Virus record (IMG/VR): IMGVR_UViG_2724679538_000004
Span: 32,001-96,000 of that record
DNA from: a virus
Lineage: Duplodnaviria; Heunggongvirae; Uroviricota; Caudoviricetes
Reading direction: 5' to 3' (one strand)
DNA length: 64,000 bases
Positions 417-49,952 of the stretch are shown here, in pieces. Below the pieces are notes generated by a model that worked only from the letters and a program-made list of their open reading frames with translations, did not search any database and was not told the origin of the DNA. The position numbers were made by a program, and so were the translations under genes. Within the stretch, counting starts at the first letter, position 1, and each line of letters begins with the position of its first letter.

Positions 417-689
417 AAAGAATTATGGCGCTTGTTGAGGAAGTCACTCCTCTTACGCACTTTGTTTTGCCATGCCGGCAGTTAGCTTCTGCCTTTGACT
501 ATTCATGCGGCAACCCCGCATTTCGCCACAATGGGCAATTCACTTTAATGGAATAAACTGGCCGTTGTGTCGATTTAATTAGCATGGCCTTACCATGCTA
601 ATTTATTCAACTTGTACAATCCTACAAATCTATCCACTCAGGCTTACACCGTCTTCGTTATTGTAGAAATGAGGATCATCAGCGTTGAA

Positions 690-905
690 TCAGCTTAGAG
701 CAACGACATTTGCTGCTGCTGGGCCTTTAGCCCCATTCTCGATAGAGAATTCGACCTGCTGGCCTTCTTCCAAAGTGCGGAAATTATTACTCTGAATTGC
801 CGAAAAATGTACAAAAACATCTTTACTGCCATCAGCAGGAGAAATAAAGCCAAAGCCTTTATCAGAGTTAAACCATTTTACTAAACCAGTCATTTTATTA
901 GACAT
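690..905 (-). CDS. cold-shock protein, CspA family
   Basis: Product [23 protein letters not shown]...VFVHFSAIQ carries the RNP1/RNP2 motifs of the cold-shock domain; ATG at 905 preceded by AAGAAGG; the longer track ORF (to 1001) lacks an RBS. Confidence 0.85.
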
Positions 906-1209
906 AGATATTACCTTCTTAATTTTGTGAGCCACATAGTGCGGCGAGAATTTGATCTGTATAGATTGGGACTTACTTAGGCACTTAAGGAGGAGACTCA
1001 CGAAGAAGGGAAATCAGAAGATAACACTGAACTGAGACTGCTTTACTAAAACTGCTTACATAAGGTCTGTCTTGCAAACCAACGATGCTATTAACGCATA
1101 CCCTTTCTTTTCATGCAACCTTTATTTTTCAAAGATAACTAATTTTTGTCACCGTTGGTTTAGTAAACGTTAACGAACCAGACGATGACAGACACCTTTA
1201 CAGAGAACA

Positions 1210-8980: not shown

Positions 8981-9036
8981 TAACACCAACCACTGCGGTG
9001 AGTAGTCTGCTCACCGCATTCGTATCCAGCTCATTA

Positions 9037-9468
9037 TCCACTGTAGTCAGTAACAAAACCTTCCTACATATCTGCTAACCACTGTAGCGAGTAGACAGCC
9101 TTTCATTCGCATCAAACAACCACTATGGTGAGTATTGGAGTGAGATGTCCAGCGGGTATCCACTATGGTGAGTAAGCCTTTGCTGTTTTCAGTGGATATC
9201 CACTCGCCACAGTGGATACGCTCAAAGATGAGGGCGACAACAACCACTATAGACAGTAAATTTTCCAAGATACCCAGTGACCACTAACCTCGCAGCCCTT
9301 GTTTCATCAGTGTTAGTGATCACTAACATTTAATTCAGTATTTGCATTCTACTGCCTACAGTGGTTATCAACAGATAACGATACTCACTATAGTGGATAG
9401 CGAATTACAGATATAAGTAAGGCTCACTACAGTGGATAGTGAGCCTTACTACTAACTACAGTGGTTGG
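9037..9468. repeat. iteron array (about 10 copies, core CCACT(A/G)TAGTGG) downstream of repA; incA-like copy-control locus
   Basis: Repeated CCACTGTAG / CACTATAGTGGATA / CACTACAGTGGATAG units seen directly in the sequence. Confidence 0.75.
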
Positions 9469-9469
9469 G

Positions 9470-10525
9470 CTATTTGCGAGTCTTTGCCTTGCGCAACTCT
9501 TCGAGAAGCGCCAGTTCTTCTTTACTCAACATGACCATTTTGCCTTCTTTTTCGTCAGGCGCAACGTCGATAATGTCATCTTGATTCTCATCTGGGAGGC
9601 TATATTCCGTCTCATCATTATCGATTTTTGTTGATATTTGTGCCTGGCGTAACTTTGGCCGCCTATAGTGGATGACGAAGTAGACCGAGTTTCCGCGCTT
9701 AACTTCCGTGTAATCGAGATATCCTATCTCTCGCAGCTGTTCCATAGCCTTTCTTACCGTCGCATTCTGAGTAATAGTGCGACTTGTCAGATTAAGTCTG
9801 GCGCGTAAACGGGCTAGTGATATTGGTGCCGGATCAGGCGGCAAACTTTCAATAAAAGTATAAAGCGCCTGAGCGGATTCTTTTCTTGAGAGTTCGTTTA
9901 TAGCCCGGAGTTGCAGAAGAACCTTTTTGTCGAACTGGTAGAGTTCGAAAATCTTGGGATCTGCTTTCAGTTCGACCGTATCGTGCTTGACACTATATTT
10001 TGCCGTTTGCACAAGATGCGTTACGTAAAACTCATCAGAGCCTTTGCTACGGAACGAGATGGTATTTGTGGCAATACGGCTTAGCGAACTGTCCAGGCGT
10101 TTGCGTAACTTCGCTGATGACCTGGCGGTCGGAATGCCACACAGCCTTACAAACTCAACGAACGGCAACGTGACGGTATCGCCAACGACCTTGTGTTTGG
10201 CAAACGCGTGGATTATTCCCACCCACGTTTTAAAGTCGTTATCCATATCAAGCCGAAGGCCAGAGATCCTTATGTCTTCGTACCCTTCTGCTTTTGCCAG
10301 AGACAGCTGTTTGAGTTCAGCAGAGGCATCCATAGAGACCATTTGCCCCTTTCTTCCTCTGGATGTCGATTTCAGCGTCGGAACGAAGAGGCCCAGACGC
10401 ATCAAAGCAACAGGCTGAACAGTGTTATTAGTGTTAGGAACCAACGTAACAACTTCGCCTGTCTTTTTATCTGTTTCTGAAAATGCTTCAACGATCGCTA
10501 TGTTTTTATTGCCGTTTTCGCTCAT
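9470..10525 (-). CDS. repA: plasmid-type replication initiator RepA (iteron-binding, winged-helix)
   Basis: 351-aa protein flanked on both sides by iteron arrays; basic C-terminus; architecture matches P1/F-type replicons. Confidence 0.75.
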
Positions 10526-10570
10526 TCCAAATGTCTCTTGTTATTCGACGGCTTTGGTGGCCTTTGCTGA

Positions 10571-10695
10571 TTACAGTGGATAGTAGCACTCATCACAGCG
10601 GTTATCCTACCGTCTATAGTGGTTTTTCTCCTCTCTATAGTGGTTGCTTTGCTCCCTATAGTGGATTATTTGCTCTCTATAGTGGATATCGATCA
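10571..10695. repeat. iteron array, 4-5 direct repeats of about 21 bp (core CTCTATAGTGG) upstream of repA
   Basis: ctatagtggtttttctcctctctatagtggttgctttgctccctatagtggattatttgctctctatagtggatat. Confidence 0.8.
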
Positions 10696-10699
10696 TGTC

Positions 10700-10955
10700 T
10701 GAAGGCAGATGGCACAACGGTTTGAGGTGGGCGGGGATCTTATTGGGTCTTTATGGGTCTCTTTGGTTCTCTTTGTGATCTGAATTACTGGATCGGGCCT
10801 GTGGATAAAAATCAGAGGATTACAAGAACAGGTAACTCTACTCTTCTGTGGATATTTAAGGACATAAGAATCATGACTAAGAGTAGAGTTTAAAATATAT
10901 CTATGTGTATCAGTATGTTAATGAAGAATTAAGTCATTAAGTTATCCATAAAAGA
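10700..10955. promoter_or_regulatory. AT-rich origin spacer with DnaA-box-like 9-mers (TGTGGATAA at 10800-10808; TGTGGATAT at 10855-10863; TTATCCATA at 10942-10950) and GGGTCT(C)TTT repeats
   Basis: Matches to the DnaA box consensus TTATCCACA on either strand, lying between two iteron arrays. Confidence 0.55.
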
Positions 10956-10961
10956 CAATGT

Positions 10962-11075
10962 GCTCTACTCTCTACAGTGGATATATACAGCTCTCCAGAG
11001 TGGTTGTTTTACTCTTCATAGCGGTTATTCTGCTCTCTACAGAGGTTACTTTGCTCTCCATAGTGGATGGCAACA
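10962..11075. repeat. iteron array, about 5 direct repeats (CTCTACAGTGG / CTCCAGAGTGG / CTCCATAGTGG)
   Basis: Direct repeats at about 22-bp spacing. Confidence 0.75.
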
Positions 11076-11100
11076 CCCTTTCAGACCAGTAACCGCAACG

Positions 11101-11165
11101 CCTGGAGGCGATCGGGGATCTCTTTGGATCTTCTGTTTGATCTTACTTGGGATCTCTTATTTGGA
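11101..11165. promoter_or_regulatory. cluster of GATC (Dam) sites in short direct repeats, typical of oriC/P1 oriR-type origins
   Basis: GGGGATCTCTTTGGATCTTCTGTTTGATCTTACTTGGGATCTCTTATTTGGATCTATCC has five GATC in about 60 bp. Confidence 0.55.
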
Positions 11166-11268
11166 TCTATCCAGTGGATAACTGGGATAAGTAAAACAGG
11201 CAAATGCAGATTAAGGTATGCCTAATGAGTTATCGTAGCATCGGCTAATAACTACTGAAAAAACGATT

Positions 11269-40126: not shown

Positions 40127-40516
40127 ATGGGATTCCCATCTCCTGCAGCGGATTATGTTGAAAGCCGTATTTCTCTTGATCGGCAGATAATTAGACATCC
40201 TTCAGCGACCTACTTCCTGCGAGCGGCTGATAGCCATCACCGCGAAGGAATATTGCAGGGGGCGCTGCTGGTGGTCGATTCTTCACTAACTCCGGTTGAT
40301 GGTTCACTGCTTGTATGTGCTATTGATGGGGAATTTCGTGTAAAAAAATACCGTAAGTATCCGCGTCAGTACCTGGAGGATTTAAGAACTGGCAAGAAGG
40401 AAGCATTGCCAAAGGATGACGATGGATGCACTGGCAGTACTGCCGTGTTTGGTGTCATCACTCACATTATCAACGACGCAAGAAGTGGCGAATTTGATGA
40501 TTGTCCTGTGATGTAG
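40127..40516 (+). CDS. humD: UmuD'-like protein (P1 HumD-like; begins at the position equivalent to the UmuD cleavage site)
   Basis: N-terminus MGFPSPAADYVE matches UmuD residues immediately after the Cys24-Gly25 cleavage site; conserved VDGEF(R/T)VKK; preceded by a LexA box; no umuC neighbour. Confidence 0.8.
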   Translation: MGFPSPAADYVESRISLDRQIIRHPSATYFLRAADSHHREGILQGALLVVDSSLTPVDGSLLVCAIDGEFRVKKYRKYPRQYLEDLRTGKKEALPKDDDGCTGSTAVFGVITHIINDARSGEFDDCPVM

Positions 40517-40560
40517 ATAGAAAGCCCTCGTTTGTATGAGGGCTTCTAGGTAAACACAAA

Positions 40561-41304
40561 TCACTGCATGTTGCCGAATTTTTTGTTAAGGCTTTTTCGT
40601 ATTGTCTCTATGGTTTTCTCCCTATCTGAATATAGTTCGCTAACTACATAGTCCATAATCTCAAAAGCACCTTCGATATCTTTGATCCGAACTTCATCAA
40701 ACGTATGACTGCCTGCATTCCCCAAGAACTTTATCGCCAAAAGATTTTGAGCAAGTTTGCTGCCCTCTTCCGGGATTTTTTCGATACGATGGTGCAATCG
40801 GATTGTCTTACCTTTATCATTTTGCGTAGGTATCCCCATAGAGGTAAGGATATTTTCTACAGCGATTCTGATTAGGTTTGCTGCGGCACCTTGCTGCATT
40901 AAAAAAATGGAAAAAGCAGCTTTCAGGGGGCCACTTACTTCATCCGGGCAGTTCTCTGGAATTTGAAAAACATTCAAGGAAGGAACAAAGCAAAGAGGTT
41001 TGTACCATTGATAATATTCGTCTGCCATTTCCTCTGGTTGGTAATCTCTATCCCATCCTGCCTTTCCTACGCAGGCAACCGCTTCGCCACATTTTGCTCG
41101 TGAACATTTGGCCATACAGCTGAAATAGGACTCAGACATATCGTAATCAAACCAATCTTCATTTTGTGCTTTCCTGGTACCTAAAGACTCCTCTTCAACA
41201 AAACTATCTTGCATGATTTCCAGAGTCTTTTGTCCGCAGACCGGACAAGGCCAGTCCACATGTTTATCGCTGTAAAATCGATGGGAAATTTTATGAATAG
41301 CCAT
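40561..41304 (-). CDS. zinc-ribbon protein with C-terminal HEPN/DUF4145-like segment (tentative)
   Basis: N-terminal CPVCG ... CMAKCSRAKCGEAVAC zinc-ribbon pattern; C-terminal LLAIKFLGNAGSHTFDEV resembles the R/K-x-x-G-N-x-x-x-H helix pair of DUF4145-type HEPN domains; only reverse-strand gene in its neighbourhood. Confidence 0.5.
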   Translation of the reverse strand: MAIHKISHRFYSDKHVDWPCPVCGQKTLEIMQDSFVEEESLGTRKAQNEDWFDYDMSESYFSCMAKCSRAKCGEAVACVGKAGWDRDYQPEEMADEYYQWYKPLCFVPSLNVFQIPENCPDEVSGPLKAAFSIFLMQQGAAANLIRIAVENILTSMGIPTQNDKGKTIRLHHRIEKIPEEGSKLAQNLLAIKFLGNAGSHTFDEVRIKDIEGAFEIMDYVVSELYSDREKTIETIRKSLNKKFGNMQ

Positions 41305-41448
41305 TTATTTCGCTCCATGCATATTGGCCGAAATGAGTTCAAACGATACCAATATGAATAATAGATGCGTTACTTTAAGACACTGTGGATTAAATACAAA
41401 GCATGGCTACCAACAGAAGGAACAAAAGATACTGGTTACAAATACCCG

Positions 41449-41514
41449 TAAATAAATTGTTTTCTACCTTTTCTTAATTGTGATAATAAACCACACAAGA
41501 AAACAAATTGTTTA
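41449..41514 (+). promoter_or_regulatory. conserved promoter/operator block (second copy of the 35524-35580 element, ending in AGAAAACAAATTGTTTA)
   Basis: Near-identical to 35524-35580. Confidence 0.5.
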
Positions 41515-41526
41515 GGAGTGGCAAAA

Positions 41527-41826
41527 ATGCTGAACATTACCCAAGCCTACCAGGTGGCATTGATTAGTGCATCTCATACATCAGAGGAAGATGCTCGCCG
41601 ATTCATGATCGCAAGCAATGAGCTGGATTGGGTTTCACAAATTGACGGCGGTTGTATTGTCCACGCCTGGTTACAGGATGATGTCTGGAAAGACAACTTG
41701 CGTCGATATGGTATATCCGAAGGCGCAATTGCTAACATTCAGAAAGTACTTGATGTAGGCTTTGACTCTGTACATTTCGATTGTGGCGCACCGGTCGTTG
41801 AAGGGCTTGAGTGCTGGAACTGGTAA
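41527..41826 (+). CDS. hypothetical protein
   Basis: AGGAG 8 nt before ATG 41527. Confidence 0.5.
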   Translation: MLNITQAYQVALISASHTSEEDARRFMIASNELDWVSQIDGGCIVHAWLQDDVWKDNLRRYGISEGAIANIQKVLDVGFDSVHFDCGAPVVEGLECWNW

Positions 41827-41862
41827 TCCGGCAAACGTTCCATACTATGTAACGGAGAATTT

Positions 41863-42048
41863 ATGCTTAAAGAGGACTCATATCTACTAAAGGCGCTTGA
41901 AATGCGTGGCGTTGAACCTACAGTGAAAAACGCTCACGATATCTACCTTCAGTTTTCACCGGAGCTGAAACGGCTCATAAATCAATACGGGGTTAATGAC
42001 TCAAGTGTTAAAGCAATGATAGATGATGAATTAGACCATCTCATCTAA
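41863..42048 (+). CDS. hypothetical small protein
   Basis: GGAG 6 nt before the ATG; 61 aa. Confidence 0.45.
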   Translation: MLKEDSYLLKALEMRGVEPTVKNAHDIYLQFSPELKRLINQYGVNDSSVKAMIDDELDHLI

Positions 42049-42200
42049 TCGTTTCCTATGATAATGGTTTTCACTTTGAGATTGTTATTTTTCATAGCCA
42101 AAGCTGATGTTTGTGGAAGGTGGATTGATAAACGGATGCGTATTTAGGTTATACAAGTGAGAAAATTGATAATATATAAACGCGATTTTTATGTGATGGA

Positions 42201-42770
42201 ATGGATGTAATGGAAACCCAGAACCAACAAACAAAACCTCTGAATAACATTTATGCGTGGATTCTAGCGTTCATGCCTTTCTTCTTTGCAGTATCGCCGG
42301 AAGAGTATACCAATTACGCTATTATAATTGGGGGTGTAACTACCATCGGTTTGTTAGTAGCTGACAGAATGGCTCTATCGGAGTCTGGCTGTGAACCACC
42401 TTCAATTCTATGGGGGGTATTCCTCCTGCCTGTCTATCTCTGGAAGCGCGCGACTATTACAAAAGGCAGCAGAGTGCCATTTATCATAATCGTTGCGTCG
42501 CTGGCTTGGGTTATCTTCATCGGCATCCCACACAAGGACGAGGTTGCTCTTGAAGAAGCAGCCTGCCCTCTCGTGACAACTATTCTGAAAGAGAATAACG
42601 GTTCGACTGCACCAAAATGTATGAAGGTGACAATAGAGGACAAGGTGACGGATAAGTTCTATAGAGCAACGGCTACACTAGACAATGGTAATGACATTAA
42701 CATTACTCTGGAACTTACCGGCGACAGGAACTTCTACGTCCGTGTTCCAAATGTTTATCTGAACAACTAA
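42201..42770 (+). CDS. integral membrane protein (about 3 TM segments) with C-terminal soluble domain
   Basis: Hydrophobic segments IYAWILAFMPFFFAV, AIIIGGVTTIGLLV, FIIIVASLAWVIFIG. Confidence 0.5.
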   Translation: MDVMETQNQQTKPLNNIYAWILAFMPFFFAVSPEEYTNYAIIIGGVTTIGLLVADRMALSESGCEPPSILWGVFLLPVYLWKRATITKGSRVPFIIIVASLAWVIFIGIPHKDEVALEEAACPLVTTILKENNGSTAPKCMKVTIEDKVTDKFYRATATLDNGNDINITLELTGDRNFYVRVPNVYLNN

Positions 42771-42889
42771 CGGTTGCAACTTATTGATAATGGCGGTCAC
42801 AATTTGATTCTTTTCTATAAGAATCCGTTGATCGCCACTACTCCCCTTCCATACCTGCAACCACATCCTTAAATATCAATTAGTTATAG

Positions 42890-43766
42890 TTGTTTATACC
42901 AATAAGAAAACAACTAAATAACAGATCAACGAAATGTCAATGCTTTCGCCCGATTTGGTCTATAAAATTGACGTTTTCACACATCACTTCTTATACCCGC
43001 AATCCTACGCAGCAGACAGCGCCACAGCGTCCAATTTTCACCACAGATGACCCAACAACTACCAATAAAAACACACGCTCAAAATCGCTCCCGTTGCGTT
43101 ACACAACCATATAAACAACTTGTTTTCAGGCATAACAAAACAACTAAATAACACATATGCCATTCCCCAAAACAACCAACCTCTTTATGGCAGGCTACCG
43201 AAAAGACCCACCTCTTCTTCCCAGGCTACCGGACAACCAACCTAACTTTCACAGGCAATTCGAAACCTCCATACGCGCGATACCCACGACACGCCATTCC
43301 CCAAATAGCGAAGAACCACCGAAACCCCAACGAAGCTTGTAACCGCAAGGATTTCCTCAATCCCAAAAGACACGAAACAGAACATTCGAGGGAAACGCCA
43401 TTACCCAATACACGAATAACTACAAAAGCCTTTCACGCACTCCATACAAGCAACTCAAACACAATAACGAAAGGAATCGCCCACCTGCCATTACTCCATA
43501 CACGGAGAAGAACAATCACCAAAACGTCGAGAACAACCCAGAGAAGAACCACCGCAAAACGAACGAAACCATATAAACCGACAGAGAGAACTACACACCC
43601 AATTCACCAACAGAAATAGTCGCCGTATAGAACGTTCAGGGAGGAGTGAGTATTAACGCCTATAGAGAGCTTGAGACAGATAAAACACGAAGAAAACACA
43701 ACATGTATAACGGAGAAGCCAGGTATGTATAAGTGGGGAGTGGAGGAGGGGTGTCGCCTCCTTTTT
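42890..43766 (+). ncRNA. A+C-rich, G/T-poor tract with ~100-bp-spaced GCCATT(A/C)CCCAA-type repeats; candidate long non-coding RNA(s) ending at hairpin GGAGG-loop-CCTCC plus T5 (43742-43766)
   Basis: Strong strand-asymmetric composition; promoter-like AAAACAACTAAATAACA at about 42913 and 43138; only low-complexity ORFs without RBS. Confidence 0.3.
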
Positions 43767-43830
43767 CGTATTTATTCAACTCCTGATTTTATCCCCCCGT
43801 AAAACCCCTACGGTCAGCCTTCGGTCCATA

Positions 43831-43970
43831 CAGGGAAAAGGTTGCATCCCGCTACAGAAACGGCTGGGTTGCCTTCGGGGAACGGCTGGAGGTTTTCAGG
43901 GAAACGGTCGAGTTGCCTGTGTGGGTTTCGGGAAAAGGCTCGATGCCGGTTCAGGAACGGTGGCGTACCG
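43831..43970 (+). repeat. array of about six ~21-bp direct repeats with core (C)AGGGAAA(A/C)GG / GGGAACGGCT (GGA-rich)
   Basis: cagggaaaaggttgcatccc, cagaaacggctgggttgcc, ggggaacggctggagg, cagggaaacggtcgagttgcc, cgggaaaaggctcgatgcc, caggaacggtggcgtaccgg. Confidence 0.6.
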
Positions 43971-44295
43971 GTATAGCGAGAGGGAGAGTTGCGGCTACCC
44001 ACCTGTAATGTGCGGGAAGAAGGGAGACTCTCACGTATAGGCGAACCTACTTCCCGCTGGATTCCCTCTGAATGCCCAGCTACAGCGTAATTGTGCCAGA
44101 CAGTCCGCGGGTCACAATCGATTTCAGTAGGTTTTCGGGGAGAGGATTATTCTGCCCACCAGCTCCCTGCGGCCAGTAAATCAGAATAATGTAAAAAGTG
44201 CCCACGGTACTGAACCTGAAAAGTCACTACTAAAACTGCATTTACCGGAATAAAACTCTTTTTCACCTATGTGTTATTGCGATAATAACACCAAC

Positions 44296-44313
44296 GAGAA
44301 AACAAGTTGTTTA
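44296..44313 (+). promoter_or_regulatory. promoter/operator motif GAGAAAACAAGTTGTTTA
   Basis: Palindromic AAACAA-N-TTGTTT core immediately upstream of RBS GGAG. Confidence 0.45.
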
Positions 44314-44323
44314 CGGAGTGGTA

Positions 44324-44635
44324 ATGAATACCTCATTGGTTCTTGGTCTTGCAGAAGGTCAGGACAGAAAAGAAAAGCCAACTTTGATGGGACACCTCAC
44401 ATTGTTGGATATCGTAGCGAACGGAACTTCTATTCGACTGTTTCGTGAAAAAGCTATTACCTTCGACAAAGTGAATTTAACGCGCTATGTGATGGTTGTT
44501 CGTCGCCAGCGAGGAAGAGGGTGGATGTCAGTTCAGAAAATGTGGCCAGAGGACCAGCTTGAACTGGCACTGATGGAAGTGAACCGCGTAGCCCAGCAAG
44601 AAATCCAACGAGCTTCTGTTCAGGCAGTGGCTTAA
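44324..44635 (+). CDS. hypothetical protein
   Basis: GGAG 5 nt before ATG 44324. Confidence 0.5.
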   Translation: MNTSLVLGLAEGQDRKEKPTLMGHLTLLDIVANGTSIRLFREKAITFDKVNLTRYVMVVRRQRGRGWMSVQKMWPEDQLELALMEVNRVAQQEIQRASVQAVA

Positions 44636-44761
44636 GCATGTGCAAGCAGTAGTTAGTCGAGTGTACGACAGCCCTGATTCCTTACAGGGCTTTTTTGTAT
44701 TGTAAGTAACTACTTACAATAATAGAATTACCTCGTTCGTTAACTTACATACAGGGAGAGT

Positions 44762-45160
44762 ATGATGAGCGTAAAACGCGAAAACCTGACAATCGATATG
44801 TACTATGCCTCTGAAAAAGCAGAAGACGAAGCGGTTGCAAAAATTACCGTGATGATTCGTGACAATGAATCTGGTGCAGAGGTACAAACAAGCACTCTTG
44901 TACGCACAGGAACAGGCGAAGAGGCGACTTATGCCGTCGGCTATCAGAATATCAACGATGCCACGGACCCGCTGTTACTTAAACTGGAAAACCACTTCCG
45001 CAGTGTCGATAAGGTGCTTTTTGAGAAGCTGATGGAAGCCGTGGATGAGGTGTATACCTCAAACCTCAACAGCAATACTACCTGGATGGGACAGTATGGC
45101 CTGCGAATTACCACCGGCGCTCAAGTAGAAACCGTCATCCCCGAAAGCGTATTCGCTTAA
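44762..45160 (+). CDS. hypothetical protein
   Basis: GGGAGAG RBS; 132 aa. Confidence 0.5.
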   Translation: MMSVKRENLTIDMYYASEKAEDEAVAKITVMIRDNESGAEVQTSTLVRTGTGEEATYAVGYQNINDATDPLLLKLENHFRSVDKVLFEKLMEAVDEVYTSNLNSNTTWMGQYGLRITTGAQVETVIPESVFA

Positions 45161-45277
45161 TCCTCTTTGAATGGCGCGTAAACCGCGCCATTTTCTTATG
45201 CCCGATAACAATTTGTTTTCTGCCTTATCTGATTTGTGAAAATGATTTCACTGAAGCAACTTAATAAGGAAACCATC

Positions 45278-45652
45278 ATGGAACTTGATATCTATATCGA
45301 GACGCAGCCTAAAAACGATCTGAATAACGAGGAATCCAGAAGACAGGTTGCTTACTTCCGCAAGTTCAATGCGCTCGTTGGGTGGATGGAGCGCAACGTA
45401 GGTGAAGTCGAAAATTGTGAGCTTTTAGAATTAACGATGAATGACATTTGTTTTCTGAAAGCTCATTTGATGCACATAAACGAAAGTAATTGCGAAGAGT
45501 ACTTACCTACACAGGAAGGGTTTTTCTTCGGCAGTCAGGAGTACGATGAAGGTTACTGGCATGACGTGGATAAGCTGAAAAAACTGGTGGAAGACCTGAT
45601 TAGGAACCACGACTTCCACAATAACAGACTGACATTTTGCGCCTGGTGGTAA
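45278..45652 (+). CDS. hypothetical acidic protein
   Basis: AAGGAAA RBS before ATG 45278. Confidence 0.5.
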   Translation: MELDIYIETQPKNDLNNEESRRQVAYFRKFNALVGWMERNVGEVENCELLELTMNDICFLKAHLMHINESNCEEYLPTQEGFFFGSQEYDEGYWHDVDKLKKLVEDLIRNHDFHNNRLTFCAWW

Positions 45653-45989
45653 ATATGGGGGATTTTAGAAAGCGTCTTAAGGAAAGAACTGAGCAGGCCA
45701 GGAGGCAAAACGCGTTTTCTGTTATCCGGTACGCGAAACAATTCAGTCGGAACAACAAGTCAGTTGAGGAAAAGATCCTCAGCGTAATAGGACGATAATT
45801 ATTGAGGCTACCAGCATGGATAGCCTCACTGACTTTTCTTATAACCGAAGGTTAGTTTTGAAACCTGGCTAATGACTTCCAGTACCTGTCTTGATAATTC
45901 AGCCTGCATTAACTTCTTTTCTGCCTTATCTACACTGCGATAATTACACCAACAAGAAAACAACATGTTTACGCAGTGAGGATATGCAC

Positions 45990-46271
45990 ATGACTGATTT
46001 CACCATTACTACCAAAGCACAAAATGTATTCCTTGAATCATGGCTGGACTTGCCGGAAACAGAACAGCAAGAAATGGATCATGTGGAATATGACGAGCAG
46101 GTAAGCACGCGATTCTTCCACTTTGAGGGCTGCGTTTACGATATTGCCGACTTCATGCGAGATGACCGCTTCCCTGAATGGCACGCAAGCTATCCACTTA
46201 ACGCCTTCGCCATGCTGATGATCCGTGTGGATGACTCAGGGGATACCATCGATGTCGGTTTGCTCCACTAA
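45990..46271 (+). CDS. hypothetical acidic small protein
   Basis: GAGGA RBS 8 nt before ATG 45990; 93 aa. Confidence 0.5.
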   Translation: MTDFTITTKAQNVFLESWLDLPETEQQEMDHVEYDEQVSTRFFHFEGCVYDIADFMRDDRFPEWHASYPLNAFAMLMIRVDDSGDTIDVGLLH

Positions 46272-46301
46272 ATAATAAGGGACCACCAGCATTGGTGGCT
46301 C

Positions 46302-46574
46302 TTATATCATTTTTGCGAGCTTATTCATTTTGGTGAAGTCAATTGGCAATTCGGCCAAAGGTATCAAATAGTCTTTTTGTGCCCAGAAGTTTGGAGATCT
46401 GCCCACTACATACGAAAGCCGATAAGCGTCTTCATCGGTAATCGGCTTTCTTTGTTCTAGTATAGCTTCAGCATAGTCGATACTAACCGCCATGCTGCGA
46501 GCCAATAATTCAACCCCAATACCGTAATCGTCATAAATGGCATCAAGAAATTTTTTCACATCAAGTTGGGACAT
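46302..46574 (-). CDS. XRE/HigA-like helix-turn-helix regulator (tentative)
   Basis: GRSPNFWAQKDY resembles the G-x-S-P-x-F-W motif of HigA/VapI-type HTH proteins. Confidence 0.45.
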   Translation of the reverse strand: MSQLDVKKFLDAIYDDYGIGVELLARSMAVSIDYAEAILEQRKPITDEDAYRLSYVVGRSPNFWAQKDYLIPLAELPIDFTKMNKLAKMI

Positions 46575-46769
46575 ATGATTATCTCCTCAAATAAGCCAAG
46601 TTTTTATTATATAACGATATTTTTCGATTGTGGGTAATATGATTACACCCGCAGGCTAAAAACACCAACCTCTTACCTCCAGGCTACCGATTAACCCACC
46701 TGTTCCCGTCCGGCTACCGCAACTTTCCACTTTGACGCCTTATTCGTACAACGATAATTAACACCAACA

Positions 46770-46786
46770 AGAAAACAATTTGTTAT
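46770..46786 (+). promoter_or_regulatory. promoter/operator motif AGAAAACAATTTGTTAT
   Basis: Same element family as 44296, 45204, 45954. Confidence 0.45.
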
Positions 46787-46805
46787 TTACGATAAGGAAT
46801 TAATC

Positions 46806-47288
46806 ATGAATTTTATCGTTACTGTAAACGCACCCGCACATGGCAATATCGCTGTAACGTTCTCTGACATTGAAAAACGAGTACTTGGTGCATGGCGCGA
46901 CAATGAGACGGTAGAACTGTCAGCACAAGAAAAATGCATTATTGCACGCGACATCATTGGTAATCGTCGTTACTCGCGGGTATTTGAGAAAGCGTATGTG
47001 GTAAATTCTGGATTCGGAACGTTCGTCTTTCCGGTGCGCTCCGGGCGATTCTGCCAGTCCAAGCTGATTGAGTTCGCTACGCAGATTTCTGTCTGGATTA
47101 AAACTCAATCGTCGTTCAAATTTTCCGACGATGAAGCAGTATCGCAGGGGATGCGGATCGCCAACAATGCGATAAAATGCAAAAACATTACGTATGCCGC
47201 TGGCGTTGACACATGGAAACTGTTTTGCGCTAACTTTATGCTGAATGTATACGCAAGCAACCGCATCCACATCCTTGATGGCGTGTAA
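46806..47288 (+). CDS. hypothetical protein
   Basis: AAGGAAT RBS; 160 aa. Confidence 0.5.
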   Translation: MNFIVTVNAPAHGNIAVTFSDIEKRVLGAWRDNETVELSAQEKCIIARDIIGNRRYSRVFEKAYVVNSGFGTFVFPVRSGRFCQSKLIEFATQISVWIKTQSSFKFSDDEAVSQGMRIANNAIKCKNITYAAGVDTWKLFCANFMLNVYASNRIHILDGV

Positions 47289-47294
47289 CTGAGA

Positions 47295-47320
47295 AGAGGG
47301 CCAGAAACGGCCCTTTCTCT
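47295..47320 (+). terminator. rho-independent terminator (AGAGGGCC-AGAAAC-GGCCCTTT)
   Basis: Hairpin with T-rich tail after the stop at 47288. Confidence 0.6.
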
Positions 47321-47324
47321 ATAG

Positions 47325-47455
47325 CCACCAGCTGCCGCAGGGAAATTTTCAGAAACGGCGAGGAACGCATTCATGAACCGACGGGAAACGGCCAAGATTT
47401 TTTCGGGAAACGGCTGCATTCGCCTTTATGTAGAAAAACATCGGGAAGCTGGTGG
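47325..47455 (+). repeat. second GGA-rich repeat array (GGGAAATTTTC, AGAAACGGCG, GGGAAACGGCC, GGGAAACGGCT) enclosed by 9-bp inverted repeat CCACCAGCT / AGCTGGTGG
   Basis: Same core motif as the 43831-43970 array; flanking inverted repeat about 110 nt apart. Confidence 0.6.
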
Positions 47456-47880
47456 AATCCAACCAGCGGTTGTCGGACAGGTGAGCGCGGAAAATAATGA
47501 TGACTTTCGTCGCCTGAGACATACAGATTTCTTTCATAGCGTAATCACATACGTGATTAAGTAGTGTGATTATGTGAAAAATCACGCGCACATAATACGC
47601 GAGCGGATAAAGAACAACACAAAATGCCGATCCGCGCCGACAAATAAACGCGGATCACATAGCAAGACTAATAACCAATGATTAGCCATACATTATAACG
47701 CAATATAACGCGATTTAAGCGCGTTAATGTGTTAAGTAATGGGTATGTACTGGTAAGGATGTAAAAGCGCGTCTATGGTGTTATTTTGGCGCTTATTTTT
47801 ATGTTGTTGGAGTGAGTCAAAGACAATAAAAAAACGCGCCATTGATGGCGCGTTATTGTGGAAGTATTGGAAACGAAAAA

Positions 47881-47899
47881 AGCGCCCATAGTGGGCGCT
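47881..47899. terminator. hairpin AGCGCCCATAGTGGGCGCT flanked by A-run and T-run (bidirectional)
   Basis: Identical copy at 48151-48168; lies at the 3' end of the minus-strand gene 47904..48134. Confidence 0.6.
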
Positions 47900-47903
47900 C
47901 GAT

Positions 47904-48134
47904 TTATTTATGTAAACTGATTTCAAATCCCATTTCTACAAACGCTTTCAGCATTAAAAATATATCAGCGTCGTTCACCTCAGCTTTTTTGCGCTCCTGG
48001 TCGCTCAATAAGTCAATTTTGCGCGTCGTTTCATCTATAAGCTCGACTGCGCGCCCAGCGTAACCAGCGATCCCAGCGATCCGATTTACATAATATTCAT
48101 TGTGGACGTTAACGCCAGCGATAAGAATAAACAT
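47904..48134 (-). CDS. hypothetical protein
   Basis: 76-aa ORF bracketed by two copies of the same terminator hairpin. Confidence 0.4.
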   Translation of the reverse strand: MFILIAGVNVHNEYYVNRIAGIAGYAGRAVELIDETTRKIDLLSDQERKKAEVNDADIFLMLKAFVEMGFEISLHK

Positions 48135-48150
48135 GATTAAGCTCCTTAAA

Positions 48151-48168
48151 AGCGCCCATAGTGGGCGC
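48151..48168. terminator. hairpin AGCGCCCATAGTGGGCGC (second copy)
   Basis: Between minus-strand genes 48182..48832 and 47904..48134. Confidence 0.55.
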
Positions 48169-48181
48169 CAGATTCCATTAA

Positions 48182-48832
48182 TTACGCTTTGAAAGCATCA
48201 GCCAGATAGTTATAGAAATCATTTTTAATAAAGCGATATTGCTGCGTACCAGCTTTTGCGCTTCCCATTCCTTTGACTTTCTCAACAAGTCCAAGACGTT
48301 CACAAAGATTAATTAGCTGATTAGCTTGAGTATAGCCAGCGTCAAGTTTAATCTCACACGCTTTTTTAGCTTCATTCATTAAATCGAAAACAGCGCCATT
48401 TGTGAACGTCTCGATCTCGTCGTTAATCATATCGATTAAAGCGAATACACGAGATCCTGACATATCAGCGACGGAATATACACATGTTCCAGCTTTAATA
48501 GATTTAACAAGATAAACCAGCTTTTCCAGTGAATAACTATTAGTCATAGCGTCACGGAAAAATACTTCTGGGGCTTGTTTACTTGCTTTAATCGCATAGT
48601 AGAAAACAGAACATAATTTATCGTCTTCTACTGCGTTAACCACGTTGTTGATGAAGTAAGCAAGCTTAGTGGTCGCAGCTTGCATATTTGCTTTGTCTGC
48701 TTTAGTGTGCGTACCATTTTTATAATGTTCGTTATATGTTTGAGTTGCCAGATCTGCTTTTTCGCGCAGCTCATCGGATACAATGGAAGCAGCTTCAATG
48801 ATGGATTTTTTAGAAATGATAATGTTAGCCAT
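48182..48832 (-). CDS. hypothetical protein (AT-rich codon usage)
   Basis: 216-aa ORF with GGAAAATTATC RBS context. Confidence 0.55.
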   Translation of the reverse strand: MANIIISKKSIIEAASIVSDELREKADLATQTYNEHYKNGTHTKADKANMQAATTKLAYFINNVVNAVEDDKLCSVFYYAIKASKQAPEVFFRDAMTNSYSLEKLVYLVKSIKAGTCVYSVADMSGSRVFALIDMINDEIETFTNGAVFDLMNEAKKACEIKLDAGYTQANQLINLCERLGLVEKVKGMGSAKAGTQQYRFIKNDFYNYLADAFKA

Positions 48833-49427: not shown

Positions 49428-49952
49428 TCAAAAAGGCAAAATTCGTTCAACCCAATCGAACAAAACAACTATTTTTCTACCGTTCTCGACACGTAGTGTA
49501 ACCTGACAAGCATCTGCGCCTGCTGACACCCCCTCAATTTCACGGCCATCCGCCATGTACACCCTTATAGATTTGTTTGCTTTATGGGCCTGGTTGCAAA
49601 TTGCAAAAAAATCACGGCGTGATGGCCGATTGTCAACATAATCAGGGTGAACTGTTAATCGACCTTTGAAATCGTGAGCGATACCGTCAACCACACCTGA
49701 TTCAATTGTACTAATGCGTTCAAGTGGAAGCCTTATACGATTTTCTTTGTCAAAAGGGGCTGGGCAAAGATCAACTTTGTTACGAGATGGCATGAGACCA
49801 TAAACGTACATGCAAAACGCCTGGCCATCTTCGAGAGTGGCCCTTACAGGAATTTGTTCTCTGCGCCAGAACATCAGGAGGTTTTCAATATTCTTATAAT
49901 CTCGCGGCCAGACCTCCGCTGGCACGCCGTAGGTGATGTCTTTAGTCGTCAT
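49428..49952 (-). CDS. hypothetical protein
   Basis: ATG at 49952, 4 nt after the lipoprotein stop; the longer track ORF would overlap the upstream gene. Confidence 0.5.
   Translation of the reverse strand: MTTKDITYGVPAEVWPRDYKNIENLLMFWRREQIPVRATLEDGQAFCMYVYGLMPSRNKVDLCPAPFDKENRIRLPLERISTIESGVVDGIAHDFKGRLTVHPDYVDNRPSRRDFFAICNQAHKANKSIRVYMADGREIEGVSAGADACQVTLRVENGRKIVVLFDWVERILPF

What the first reader, a model, noticed from the sequence alone, without database searches (positions are those of the whole stretch)
47325..47455. Second GGA-rich repeat array enclosed by a 9-bp inverted repeat
A second locus about 3.4 kb to the right carries the same GGGAAACGGC-type units three to four times (about 47341, 47352, 47384, 47408), bracketed by CCACCAGCT (47325) and AGCTGGTGG (47447), which could close a long stem around the repeats. 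The terminator hairpin of the upstream gene (47295-47320) even contains AGAAACGGCC in its loop. Two dispersed copies of one repeat family flank the small-gene cassette 44324-47288, suggesting a shared binding protein or a pair of related structured RNAs.
Basis: seen in the sequence. Interest (0 to 1): 0.6.

Follow-up and report, generated by a model that had tools for sequence, protein, structure and literature searches.

The report
Phased repeat array in phage-plasmid spacer
A short G-rich motif repeated every two turns of the DNA helix, found at two places in a pHCM2/pMT1/SSU5-type phage-plasmid and kept in hundreds of relatives, is most likely a docking array for a still unidentified protein, and the "stem" around it is a pair of Chi recombination signals.

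Summary
The repeats are real, non-random and conserved. The core [C/G][A/G]G[A/G]AA[A/C]GG occurs 12 times on the + strand of the window and never on the - strand. Ten of the 12 lie in two clusters, 43833-43960 and 47302-47413. Both clusters recur in about 40 related SSU5/pHCM2/pMT1 phage-plasmid loci.

- **Spacing:** spacer sequence drifts but spacer length is fixed (22 nt in 137 of 217 intervals), and gains or losses remove whole units.
- **Inverted repeat:** the 9-bp arms are two opposed Chi octamers (GCTGGTGG), in a genome with 16 Chi sites against 1.4 expected. The right arm sits at three different positions in different clades, so it is not a conserved stem.
- **RNA structure:** I found no evidence for one beyond the upstream terminator hairpin. 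The array lies in about 510 nt of conserved non-coding DNA between convergent terminators.
- **Best reading (about 0.45):** an iteron-like array of DNA sites on one helix face for a sequence-specific protein. The best candidate is the adjacent conserved winged-helix ORF 48182-48832. It is not the RepA origin, whose iterons differ.
- **Main rival (about 0.22):** RNA sites for the nearby FljA homologue, which models as a tandem Sm/Hfq-like protein.

The binder and the function remain untested.

The parts
47295..47320 (+). Terminator-like hairpin of the 160-aa ORF (46806-47288). Its loop and 3' stem carry a repeat-like AGAAACGG, here called unit 0.
   Evidence: The hairpin is seen in the sequence and in the RNA fold. 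It is the only helix supported in 28 relatives, and three of its pairs keep pairing through changes on both sides. The loop reads GGAAAC-like in most clades but not in L014.
47325..47332 (-). Left arm of the 'inverted repeat'. It is a Chi octamer (GCTGGTGG read on the - strand).
   Evidence: It is present 75-78 nt upstream of the last unit in 35 of 49 distinct contexts.
47338..47414 (+). Array 2 proper. Cores G[A/G]AA[A/C]GG start at 47352, 47385 and 47407. Degenerate units start at 47342 (GAAATTT) and 47363 (GGAACGC). Core-to-core distances are 10, 11, 22 and 22 nt.
   Evidence: The last unit TTTCGGGAAACGGC is invariant in all 28 aligned relatives.
47448..47455 (+). Right arm of the 'inverted repeat'. 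It is a Chi octamer on the + strand.
   Evidence: It was created by substitutions inside a segment that reads GAAGCCCAGAATC in other clades.
47456..47832 (.). Conserved non-coding DNA continuing from the array. It has no conserved ORF, holds short repeats and GATC sites, and is AT-rich in the window.
   Evidence: The alignment of 11 relatives has 82% mean column identity, with indels that are not multiples of 3.
47833..47900 (-). Two - strand intrinsic terminators (47854-47833 and 47900-47880) ending the ORF216-ORF76 operon. Together with the + strand hairpin they insulate the array region from flanking transcription.
43833..43960 (+). Array 1, the sister array. It has six cores at 43835, 43857, 43879, 43901, 43932 and 43954 (spacing 22, 22, 22, 31, 22) and follows the + strand terminator 43740-43769.
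48182..48832 (-). ORF216, a conserved protein with an N-terminal helical bundle and a C-terminal winged helix. It is the best candidate DNA binder.
49428..49949 (-). FljA homologue (Pfam PF03614), modelled as two tandem Sm/Hfq-like domains. It is the candidate RNA binder. The ORF is open up to 50024, and homologues start at the Met at 49949.

Best explanation
Array 2 is one of two sister arrays of ~10-bp direct-repeat DNA sites in an SSU5/pHCM2/pMT1-type phage-plasmid.

**Proposed mechanism**
- The sites are spaced in whole helical turns, mostly 22 bp, so all of them face the same side of the double helix.
- A sequence-specific DNA-binding protein loads head-to-tail on that face and builds a nucleoprotein complex, as initiators do on iterons or centromere-binding proteins do on parC/tubC repeats.
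- The best candidate binder is the conserved winged-helix protein ORF216, encoded about 770 bp to the right.
- The complex sits in non-coding DNA shielded from transcription by convergent terminators.
- With array 1, 3.4 kb away, it could pair or loop the intervening cassette of small genes. It could also mark an accessory or lytic replication or maintenance site.
- The 9-bp inverted repeat is not part of this structure. It is a pair of Chi sites oriented to stop RecBCD approaching from either side.

**Shown:** motif, phasing, conservation, insulation, the Chi identity of the arms, and the winged-helix fold of the neighbouring protein.

**Inferred:** that the element acts as DNA, who binds it, and what the complex does.
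For: - **Information pattern.** Information is confined to a ~10-nt core, while the 12-nt spacers vary freely in sequence (logo from 104 distinct unit contexts).
- **Fixed spacer length.** Over 73 arrays the intervals are 22 nt x137, 21 x4, 23 x4, 31 x18, 33 x13, 34 x26 and 44 x3. The pattern 22,22,22,31,22 is identical in Escherichia-, Salmonella- and Enterobacter-type elements.
- **Whole-unit indels.** Gains and losses remove whole units, as in CP128732, L041 and L100.
- **Genome-wide distribution.** All units share one orientation, and the only clusters in the genome are these two arrays.
- **Insulated setting.** The array lies between a + strand terminator hairpin and two - strand terminators, in 510 nt of conserved non-coding DNA.
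- **No RNA-level signal.**
- **Candidate binder.** The adjacent ORF216 has a winged-helix fold. The conserved segment I read as its recognition helix (by eye) is invariant across the same divergent relatives (L014, L047, L091) in which the core motif is invariant.
- **Purifying selection.** In 533 more distant plasmid records from Klebsiella, Enterobacter, Yersinia, Salmonella and Citrobacter, blastn retains little more than the terminator hairpin plus array (window 47295-47446), at 75-80% identity.
Against: - No binding has been shown for any protein.
- No Rep_3 initiator is adjacent. The element's RepA (9470-10525) has different 21-bp iterons. I saw no DnaA box next to the array.
- Genome-wide Chi orientation and GC skew do not mark the array as an origin.
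- Constant spacing can also result simply from tandem duplication of a 22-nt unit.
- An RNA-binding FljA homologue lies 2 kb away, and its known target class shares GGAAAC with the units.
Confidence: 0.45

Rival explanations
1. The arrays act as RNA. Read-through or locally initiated + strand transcripts would carry 4-6 copies of GGGAAAC-type sites. These would be bound by the phage-plasmid's FljA homologue, a tandem Sm/Hfq-like protein related to the Salmonella repressor that binds the fliC mRNA leader. The arrays would then titrate the protein, or be regulated by it.
For: - ORF 49428-49949(-) matches PF03614 at E 2.5e-83 and is 38-40% identical to chromosomal FljA.
- FljA is reported to block fliC mRNA translation (PMC2652032, citing Bonifield & Hughes 2003 and Yamamoto & Kutsukake 2006).
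- The E. coli fliC leader contains GGGUGGAAACCC. This shares UGGAAAC with the terminator loop GGGGC-UGGAAAC-GCCCC found in most clades.
- The homologue is kept intact in plasmids of Klebsiella and Y. pestis. From general knowledge these hosts make no flagella, so it should have a target inside the element.
- All units are on one strand.
Against: - Both arrays start right after terminator hairpins, and no promoter is recognisable in between.
- Strict conservation of a 22-nt spacing is not expected for independent single-stranded sites.
- The cores are not kept accessible in RNA folds (z from -3.2 to +1.3).
- The shared motif is only 6-7 nt. The composite fliC-like pattern GAAAC..CCCAAWA occurs once against 0.27 expected, which is not significant.
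- Chromosomal fljBA loci have no arrays.
- A Y. pestis small-RNA survey lists no RNA at these sites (PMC3770706, Table S1).
- Co-occurrence of gene and arrays is confined to one syntenic family, so it is not independent evidence.
Confidence: 0.22
2. The arrays are G-rich recombination or R-loop zones rather than protein sites. Purine-rich, G-clustered + strand repeats flanked by Chi would favour R-loop-primed or recombination-dependent replication by the element's T4-like UvsX/UvsY/UvsW/gp32/gp46-47 set. Alternatively they would serve as crossover points for exchange of the variable small-gene cassette.
For: - The element encodes gp32-like, RecA/UvsX-like and SbcCD-like proteins and a helicase that Cyrano's authors annotate as UvsW.
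- Chi sites flank array 2 in 33 of 49 contexts, and the right one lies at three non-homologous positions.
- Cassette content between the arrays varies. The arrays are 3.4 kb apart here and 1.5 kb apart in L106/L122.
Against: - A specific 10-nt core under strong conservation, with free spacers, points to sequence-specific recognition rather than to base composition.
- No promoter is evident upstream.
- The Chi sites face inward, so they would not act on breaks made inside the array.
Confidence: 0.08
3. Each array would be a structured RNA whose repeats are enclosed by a long stem formed by the 9-nt inverted repeat, in the style of CsrB/RsmZ GGA-loop sponges.
For: In the window the fold closes CCACCAGCU with AGCUGGUGG, and the z-score is -2.3.
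Against: - The arms are Chi sites. The right arm is at other positions or missing elsewhere.
- In another clade the z-score is +0.6, and for array 1 it is +1.4.
- There is no covariation inside the array.
- Rfam gives no hit even at E up to 10.
- Several units lack GGA, and GGA is not placed in hairpin loops.
Confidence: 0.03
4. The arrays are neutral tandem repeats with no function, kept only by shared descent.
For: Tandem duplication of a 22-nt unit would by itself give regular spacing and one orientation.
Against: - The cores stay invariant while the spacers diverge, even in relatives whose flanking proteins are only 31-53% identical.
- Two separate arrays keep the same core.
- In the more distant plasmid matches blastn retains little more than the hairpin-plus-array block.
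Confidence: 0.05

Closest known systems
Iteron arrays of theta-replicating plasmids and phage-plasmids (P1 oriR/incA, F, R6K, pPS10; lambda ori iterons)
   Same: Both consist of three to six direct repeats in one orientation with a ~22-bp period and a short conserved core plus a free spacer. Both sit in non-coding DNA and have a second, separate array a few kb away, as with P1 incC/incA or P4 ori/crr. Both have a neighbouring gene for a winged-helix protein.
   Different: The neighbouring protein is not a Rep_3 or lambda-O family member. The element's real RepA origin is 37 kb away with unrelated iterons CTCTCTATAGTGGATA. No DnaA box was seen, and replication activity is untested.
Centromere repeat arrays bound by small DNA-binding proteins (R1 parC-ParR, tubC-TubR)
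   Different: No partner NTPase (ParM, TubZ or ParA) is encoded next to the arrays. In Cyrano, ParA lies about 40 kb away on the circular map.
FljA and its fliC mRNA leader target (Salmonella flagellar phase variation)
   Same: A true FljA homologue is encoded 2 kb away. The units share GGAAAC with the 5' hairpin of the E. coli fliC leader.
   Different: The target here would be a multi-copy array downstream of terminators, not a single site in a 5' UTR next to a ribosome-binding site. The hosts include bacteria without flagella, and no binding data exist.
CsrB/RsmZ-type protein-sponge RNAs
   Same: Both have many copies of a short purine-rich motif at roughly 20-nt intervals.
   Different: There is no Rfam match, no promoter-terminator unit of its own, the motif is not GGA in hairpin loops, and there is no structural signal.
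Chi (crossover hotspot instigator) sites
   Same: The two arms of the bracket are exact GCTGGTGG octamers. The genome is about 12-fold enriched for Chi.
   Different: Nothing differs. The arms are Chi sites. Only the meaning of the conserved inward-facing pair around the array is unknown.

Membership tests
Iteron-type replication origin | Tandem direct repeats of 17-22 bp at about two helical turns, in one orientation | tested here: met
   Spacing is 22 nt in 137 of 217 intervals, and the rest are near multiples of 10.5-11.
Iteron-type replication origin | A cognate Rep initiator (Rep_3 / WH1-WH2) encoded beside the repeats and binding them | tested here: not met
   The adjacent ORFs have no Pfam or NCBIfam match. 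The only Rep_3 protein is at 9470-10525, with different iterons. ORF216 has a single winged helix of generic type.
Iteron-type replication origin | Adjacent AT-rich unwinding element and DnaA boxes | tested here: inconclusive
   The downstream non-coding DNA is AT-rich in the window but GC-richer in other clades. I saw no TTATCCACA-type box by eye, and I did not run a formal scan.
Iteron-type replication origin | Supports initiation of replication | not testable with these tools
   This needs marker-frequency analysis, 2D gels or a mini-replicon test.
Partition centromere (parC/tubC type) | Phased repeats next to an operon for a centromere-binding protein and its NTPase | tested here: not met
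   The repeats are phased, but no ParA, ParM or TubZ is adjacent. In Cyrano, ParA is at 29.3 kb.
FljA operator (fliC leader type) | An FljA-family protein is present in the same element | tested here: met
   PF03614 matches at E 2.5e-83.
FljA operator (fliC leader type) | The site lies in the 5' untranslated leader of the repressed mRNA | tested here: not met
   The arrays follow terminators and precede no start codon.
FljA operator (fliC leader type) | Sequence match to the natural operator | tested here: inconclusive
   Only GGAAAC/UGGAAAC is shared with the E. coli fliC leader. The exact FljA binding site could not be read, because the two primary papers are not held.
CsrB/RsmZ-type sponge RNA or any Rfam family | Match to a covariance model; GGA motifs in hairpin loops; own promoter and terminator | tested here: not met
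   Rfam gives no hit at gathering score or at E up to 10. There is no conserved hairpin inside the array.
Chi site | Exact octamer 5'-GCTGGTGG-3' | tested here: met
   The octamer lies at 47325-47332 (-) and 47448-47455 (+). The window has 16 sites against 1.36 expected.
Intrinsic terminator (47295-47320) | GC-rich hairpin followed by a T-run directly after a stop codon, with the hairpin conserved | tested here: met
   The hairpin is kept in 28 relatives, with compensatory changes at 3 pairs. The tail is TTTCTCT here and TTTCTTTT elsewhere. The simple scanner did not list it, perhaps because the T-run can pair into an extended stem.

The most novel reading that the evidence does not exclude
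The two arrays are multi-site RNA targets or decoys for a phage-plasmid FljA homologue. That protein is not a classical transcriptional repressor but a tandem Sm/Hfq-like RNA-binding protein. Under this reading, the SSU5/pHCM2/pMT1 family has recruited the flagellar phase-variation repressor into an internal RNA-protein control circuit, which would explain why it also persists in hosts without flagella.
Probability: 0.2. Interest if true: 0.8.

Novelty: new variant of a known kind. Interest (0 to 1): 0.5.

Why it matters
SSU5/pHCM2/pMT1-type phage-plasmids are widespread in clinical Enterobacterales. They occur in S. Typhi, Y. pestis, Klebsiella and E. coli, and some carry resistance genes. 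Apart from the RepA replicon, their maintenance and lysis-lysogeny control are almost unmapped.

- **A new cis element.** Two strongly conserved, helically phased binding-site arrays in insulated non-coding DNA are good candidates for a cis-acting control, replication or maintenance element of this family. They give a concrete, short target (TTTTCGGGAAACGGCTGG) for pull-downs and footprinting.
- **A new view of FljA.** The modelling also suggests that FljA-family 'transcriptional regulators' have an Sm/Hfq-like fold. That fits their reported mRNA binding and would be worth testing in its own right.

Tried and rejected
- **RepA iterons.** Rejected. RepA's own iterons at 8985-9470 and 10560-11090 have the consensus CTCTCTATAGTGGATA and are unrelated.
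- **Known RNA family.** Rejected. Rfam finds only a cspA thermoregulator elsewhere in the window, and no tRNA is present.
- **Closing stem.** Rejected. The arms are Chi sites and the right one moves between clades.
- **Large duplication of the two loci.** Rejected at array level by the dot-plot.
- **Coding sequence.** Rejected. The overlapping ORFs 47349-47591(-) and 47105-47419(-) are broken by 1-, 2- and 22-nt indels in relatives.
- **Sigma-70 promoter formed by the last unit plus TAYAGR 11 nt downstream.** Considered, but the hexamers lack the conserved final T and differ between the two arrays. The scanner finds no promoter there. Left as unsupported.
- **fliC-leader mimicry in the A/C-rich region (GAAAC..CCCAAUA at 43392).** Not significant: one hit against 0.27 expected.
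- **Origin marked by Chi orientation or GC skew.** Not supported.
- **Published transcripts.** A Y. pestis sRNA-seq table lists none at the arrays. The LF82/Cyrano paper gives gene-level expression only.
- **Primary FljA papers and a 2026 preprint on phage-plasmid copy number.** These could not be read.
- **Independent co-occurrence of FljA homologues and arrays outside the family.** The search found only syntenic relatives and chromosomal fljBA loci without arrays.

Full report
**What the window is.**
- The region matches SSU5-type phage-plasmids. Escherichia phage Cyrano (pLF82) is 96.7% identical over 46700-47900, with weaker matches to Klebsiella and Salmonella SSU5-like elements.
- In the plasmid collection, 766 records match 47280-47620.
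- In 533 of them (Klebsiella, Enterobacter, Yersinia pestis pMT1, Salmonella pHCM2, Citrobacter), blastn retains little more than query positions 16-167, at 75-80% identity. These positions correspond to window 47295-47446, the terminator hairpin plus the array.
- Gene order around the array is constant. A 160-aa ORF on the + strand is followed by the array and about 450 nt of non-coding DNA. Then, on the - strand, come a 76-aa ORF, a 216-aa ORF, a 'transcriptional regulator' and a DEAD-box helicase.

**The observation.**
- The core [C/G][A/G]G[A/G]AA[A/C]GG occurs 12 times on the + strand of the 64-kb window and never on the - strand. Ten of the 12 occurrences are in 43833-43960 or 47302-47413.
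- In the almost complete Cyrano genome, 10 of 11 + strand hits are in the two arrays, with one hit on the - strand.
- Shuffles give 2.8-2.9 matches for related patterns, against 7 observed.
- Array 1 has six cores spaced 22, 22, 22, 31, 22 nt.
- Array 2 has strict cores at 47352, 47385 and 47407, degenerate ones at 47342 and 47363 (spacing 10, 11, 22, 22), and a repeat-like AGAAACGG in the loop of the upstream hairpin.

**Conservation.**
- I collected relatives by scanning viral contigs for the invariant 14-mer TTTCGGGAAACGGC, from plasmid hits, and from a genome scan.
- About 40 loci carry both arrays, or the part of them that the locus covers.
- A logo built from 104 distinct unit contexts shows that information is confined to about 10 nt. 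The spacer is nearly free in sequence.
- Spacer length is fixed all the same. Over 73 arrays the intervals are 22 nt x137, 21 x4, 23 x4, 31 x18, 33 x13, 34 x26, 44 x3 and 48 x12.
- Copy-number differences remove whole units: 22 nt in CP128732, similar losses in L041 and L100, and a larger block in L086.
- Divergent relatives keep the array and its last unit unchanged. In L091, L014 and L047 the flanking proteins are only 31-62% identical.
- This is selection on a short sequence-specific site and on its spacing.

**The inverted repeat.**
- CCACCAGC and GCTGGTGG are the Chi octamer in the two orientations. The window has 16 Chi sites against 1.36 expected, and Cyrano has 24.
- Among 49 distinct array-2 contexts, 33 have a - strand Chi 75-78 nt upstream of the last unit together with a + strand Chi downstream.
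- The downstream site lies at +48 (Escherichia clade), +69 (one Klebsiella clade) or +92-94 (Enterobacter, Salmonella and other Klebsiella). In the Escherichia clade it arose by substitutions within a segment that reads GAAGCCCAGAATC elsewhere.
- The pair therefore does not form a conserved stem. It may be selected as a pair of Chi sites, each active against RecBCD approaching the array from outside. That orientation rule comes from established knowledge of Chi. Why such a pair would be favoured is unexplained.

**RNA or DNA?** The evidence against a structured RNA is as follows.
- Rfam gives nothing at the gathering score or at E up to 10.
- The window's array-2 RNA folds with z = -2.3, but only through the Chi arms.
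- The same region of another clade gives z = +0.6, and array 1 gives +1.4.
- RNAalifold on 28 diverse sequences supports the terminator hairpin. Inside the array it finds only invariant 3-4-bp helices, with a covariation term of -1.8.

The evidence against selection for an unstructured, accessible RNA is that the unpaired probability of the cores, compared with spacer-shuffled controls, scatters from z = -3.2 to +1.3.

The setting argues for DNA.
- Both arrays begin just after + strand terminator hairpins, with no recognisable promoter in between.
- Array 2 lies in 510 nt of conserved non-coding DNA closed on the right by two - strand terminators.
- Spacing in whole helical turns, held constant while spacer sequence drifts, is the classic signature of proteins bound on one face of the helix.

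**Candidate binders.**
- FljA is reported to act on fliC mRNA translation (PMC2652032).
- I verified the E. coli fliC leader as ...GAGCCGACGGGUGGAAACCC.... It shares GGAAAC/UGGAAAC with the units and with the hairpin loop. This is a 6-7-nt resemblance only, and a longer fliC-like pattern is not significant.
- The homologue is intact in plasmids of Klebsiella and Y. pestis. These hosts make no flagella (general knowledge). So an internal target is plausible, but nothing further ties the protein to the arrays.

**What the arrays are not.**
- They are not the RepA origin. The Rep3 initiator at 9470-10525 is flanked by its own 21-bp iterons, with GATC and DnaA-box-like sequences.
- They are not a recent duplication. 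Array-to-array similarity does not exceed shuffles.
- They are not coding.
- Chi orientation and GC skew do not single out array 2 as an origin.
- No paper in the searchable library describes these repeats.
- A Y. pestis small-RNA survey lists none there.

**Verdict.**
- The repeat arrays are a real, conserved, unannotated cis element of the SSU5/pHCM2/pMT1 family.
- The best-supported reading is an iteron-like, helically phased array of DNA sites for a sequence-specific protein, probably ORF216. It would form a nucleoprotein complex in insulated non-coding DNA, possibly pairing with the sister array 3.4 kb away (confidence about 0.45).
- The specific output (cassette regulation, accessory or lytic origin, or maintenance) is inferred, not shown.
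- The main rival is binding of array RNA by the Sm-like FljA homologue (about 0.22). It is the more novel possibility and is directly testable.

Noticed in passing
[not shown]
   Followed up: partly
window 43100-43700 (+): About 600 nt of extremely A/C-rich non-coding sequence. It carries internal ~100-nt modules (GCCATTCCCCAAA at 43159, 43293 and 43397) and ends at terminator 43740-43769. It is preceded by an operator-like palindrome at 43112. It looks like a long non-coding transcript, and part of it is conserved in SSU5.
   Followed up: partly
window 43174, 43205, 43233 and 46663, 46693: A second repeat family, AACCAACCTCTTnnnnnCAGGCTACCG (30-31-nt period), also occurs at both loci upstream of the arrays. 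This is the only significant similarity in the dot-plot between them (40 bits).
   Followed up: no
window 44278-44320, 45936-45978, 46751-46793; palindrome also at 43112 and 45207: A 43-nt direct repeat containing the palindrome AAACAAnTTGTTT sits in front of several small ORFs of the cassette. It is probably a repeated promoter/operator unit, reminiscent of the mobile regulatory cassettes of T4-type phages. A possible cognate HTH protein is the 90-aa ORF 46302-46574 (-).
   Followed up: no
whole window; Cyrano genome: Chi (GCTGGTGG) is about 12-fold over-represented: 16 against 1.4 expected in the window, and 24 in 107.5 kb of Cyrano. In Cyrano the orientation runs in broad domains that switch a few kb to the right of the RepA origin.
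   Followed up: partly
array-2 homologues in about 49 loci: The + strand Chi to the right of array 2 lies at three non-homologous positions (+48, +69, +93) in different clades. The - strand Chi on the left is fixed. This suggests selection for a Chi pair facing outward-approaching RecBCD.
   Followed up: partly
window 8985-9470 and 10560-11090: Classic iteron arrays (CTCTCTATAGTGGATA, 21-nt period) lie on both sides of the Rep3 repA gene (9470-10525, -). GATC clusters and TGTGGATAA-type boxes lie at 10745-10808 and 11116-11181. This is the plasmid origin.
   Followed up: yes
window 665-1083 (-): A full-length match to the cspA thermoregulator (RF01766, 185.7 bits) shows that the element carries a cold-shock gene leader.
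   Followed up: no
window 47878-47904 and 48148-48174: The terminator hairpin AAAAGCGCCCATAGTGGGCGC occurs twice (93% identical), after ORF216 and after ORF76. The same hairpin recurs two or three times in divergent relatives (L014, L047, L091).
   Followed up: no
window about 40500-43000, compared with Cyrano 89.7-94.7 kb: Cyrano carries a MinD/Mrp-like ATPase and a methionyl-tRNA synthetase to the left of array 1. The window lacks these and has DUF4145 and DUF5983 proteins instead. A Y. pestis sRNA (sR083) maps next to the DUF4145 gene of pMT1.
   Followed up: no
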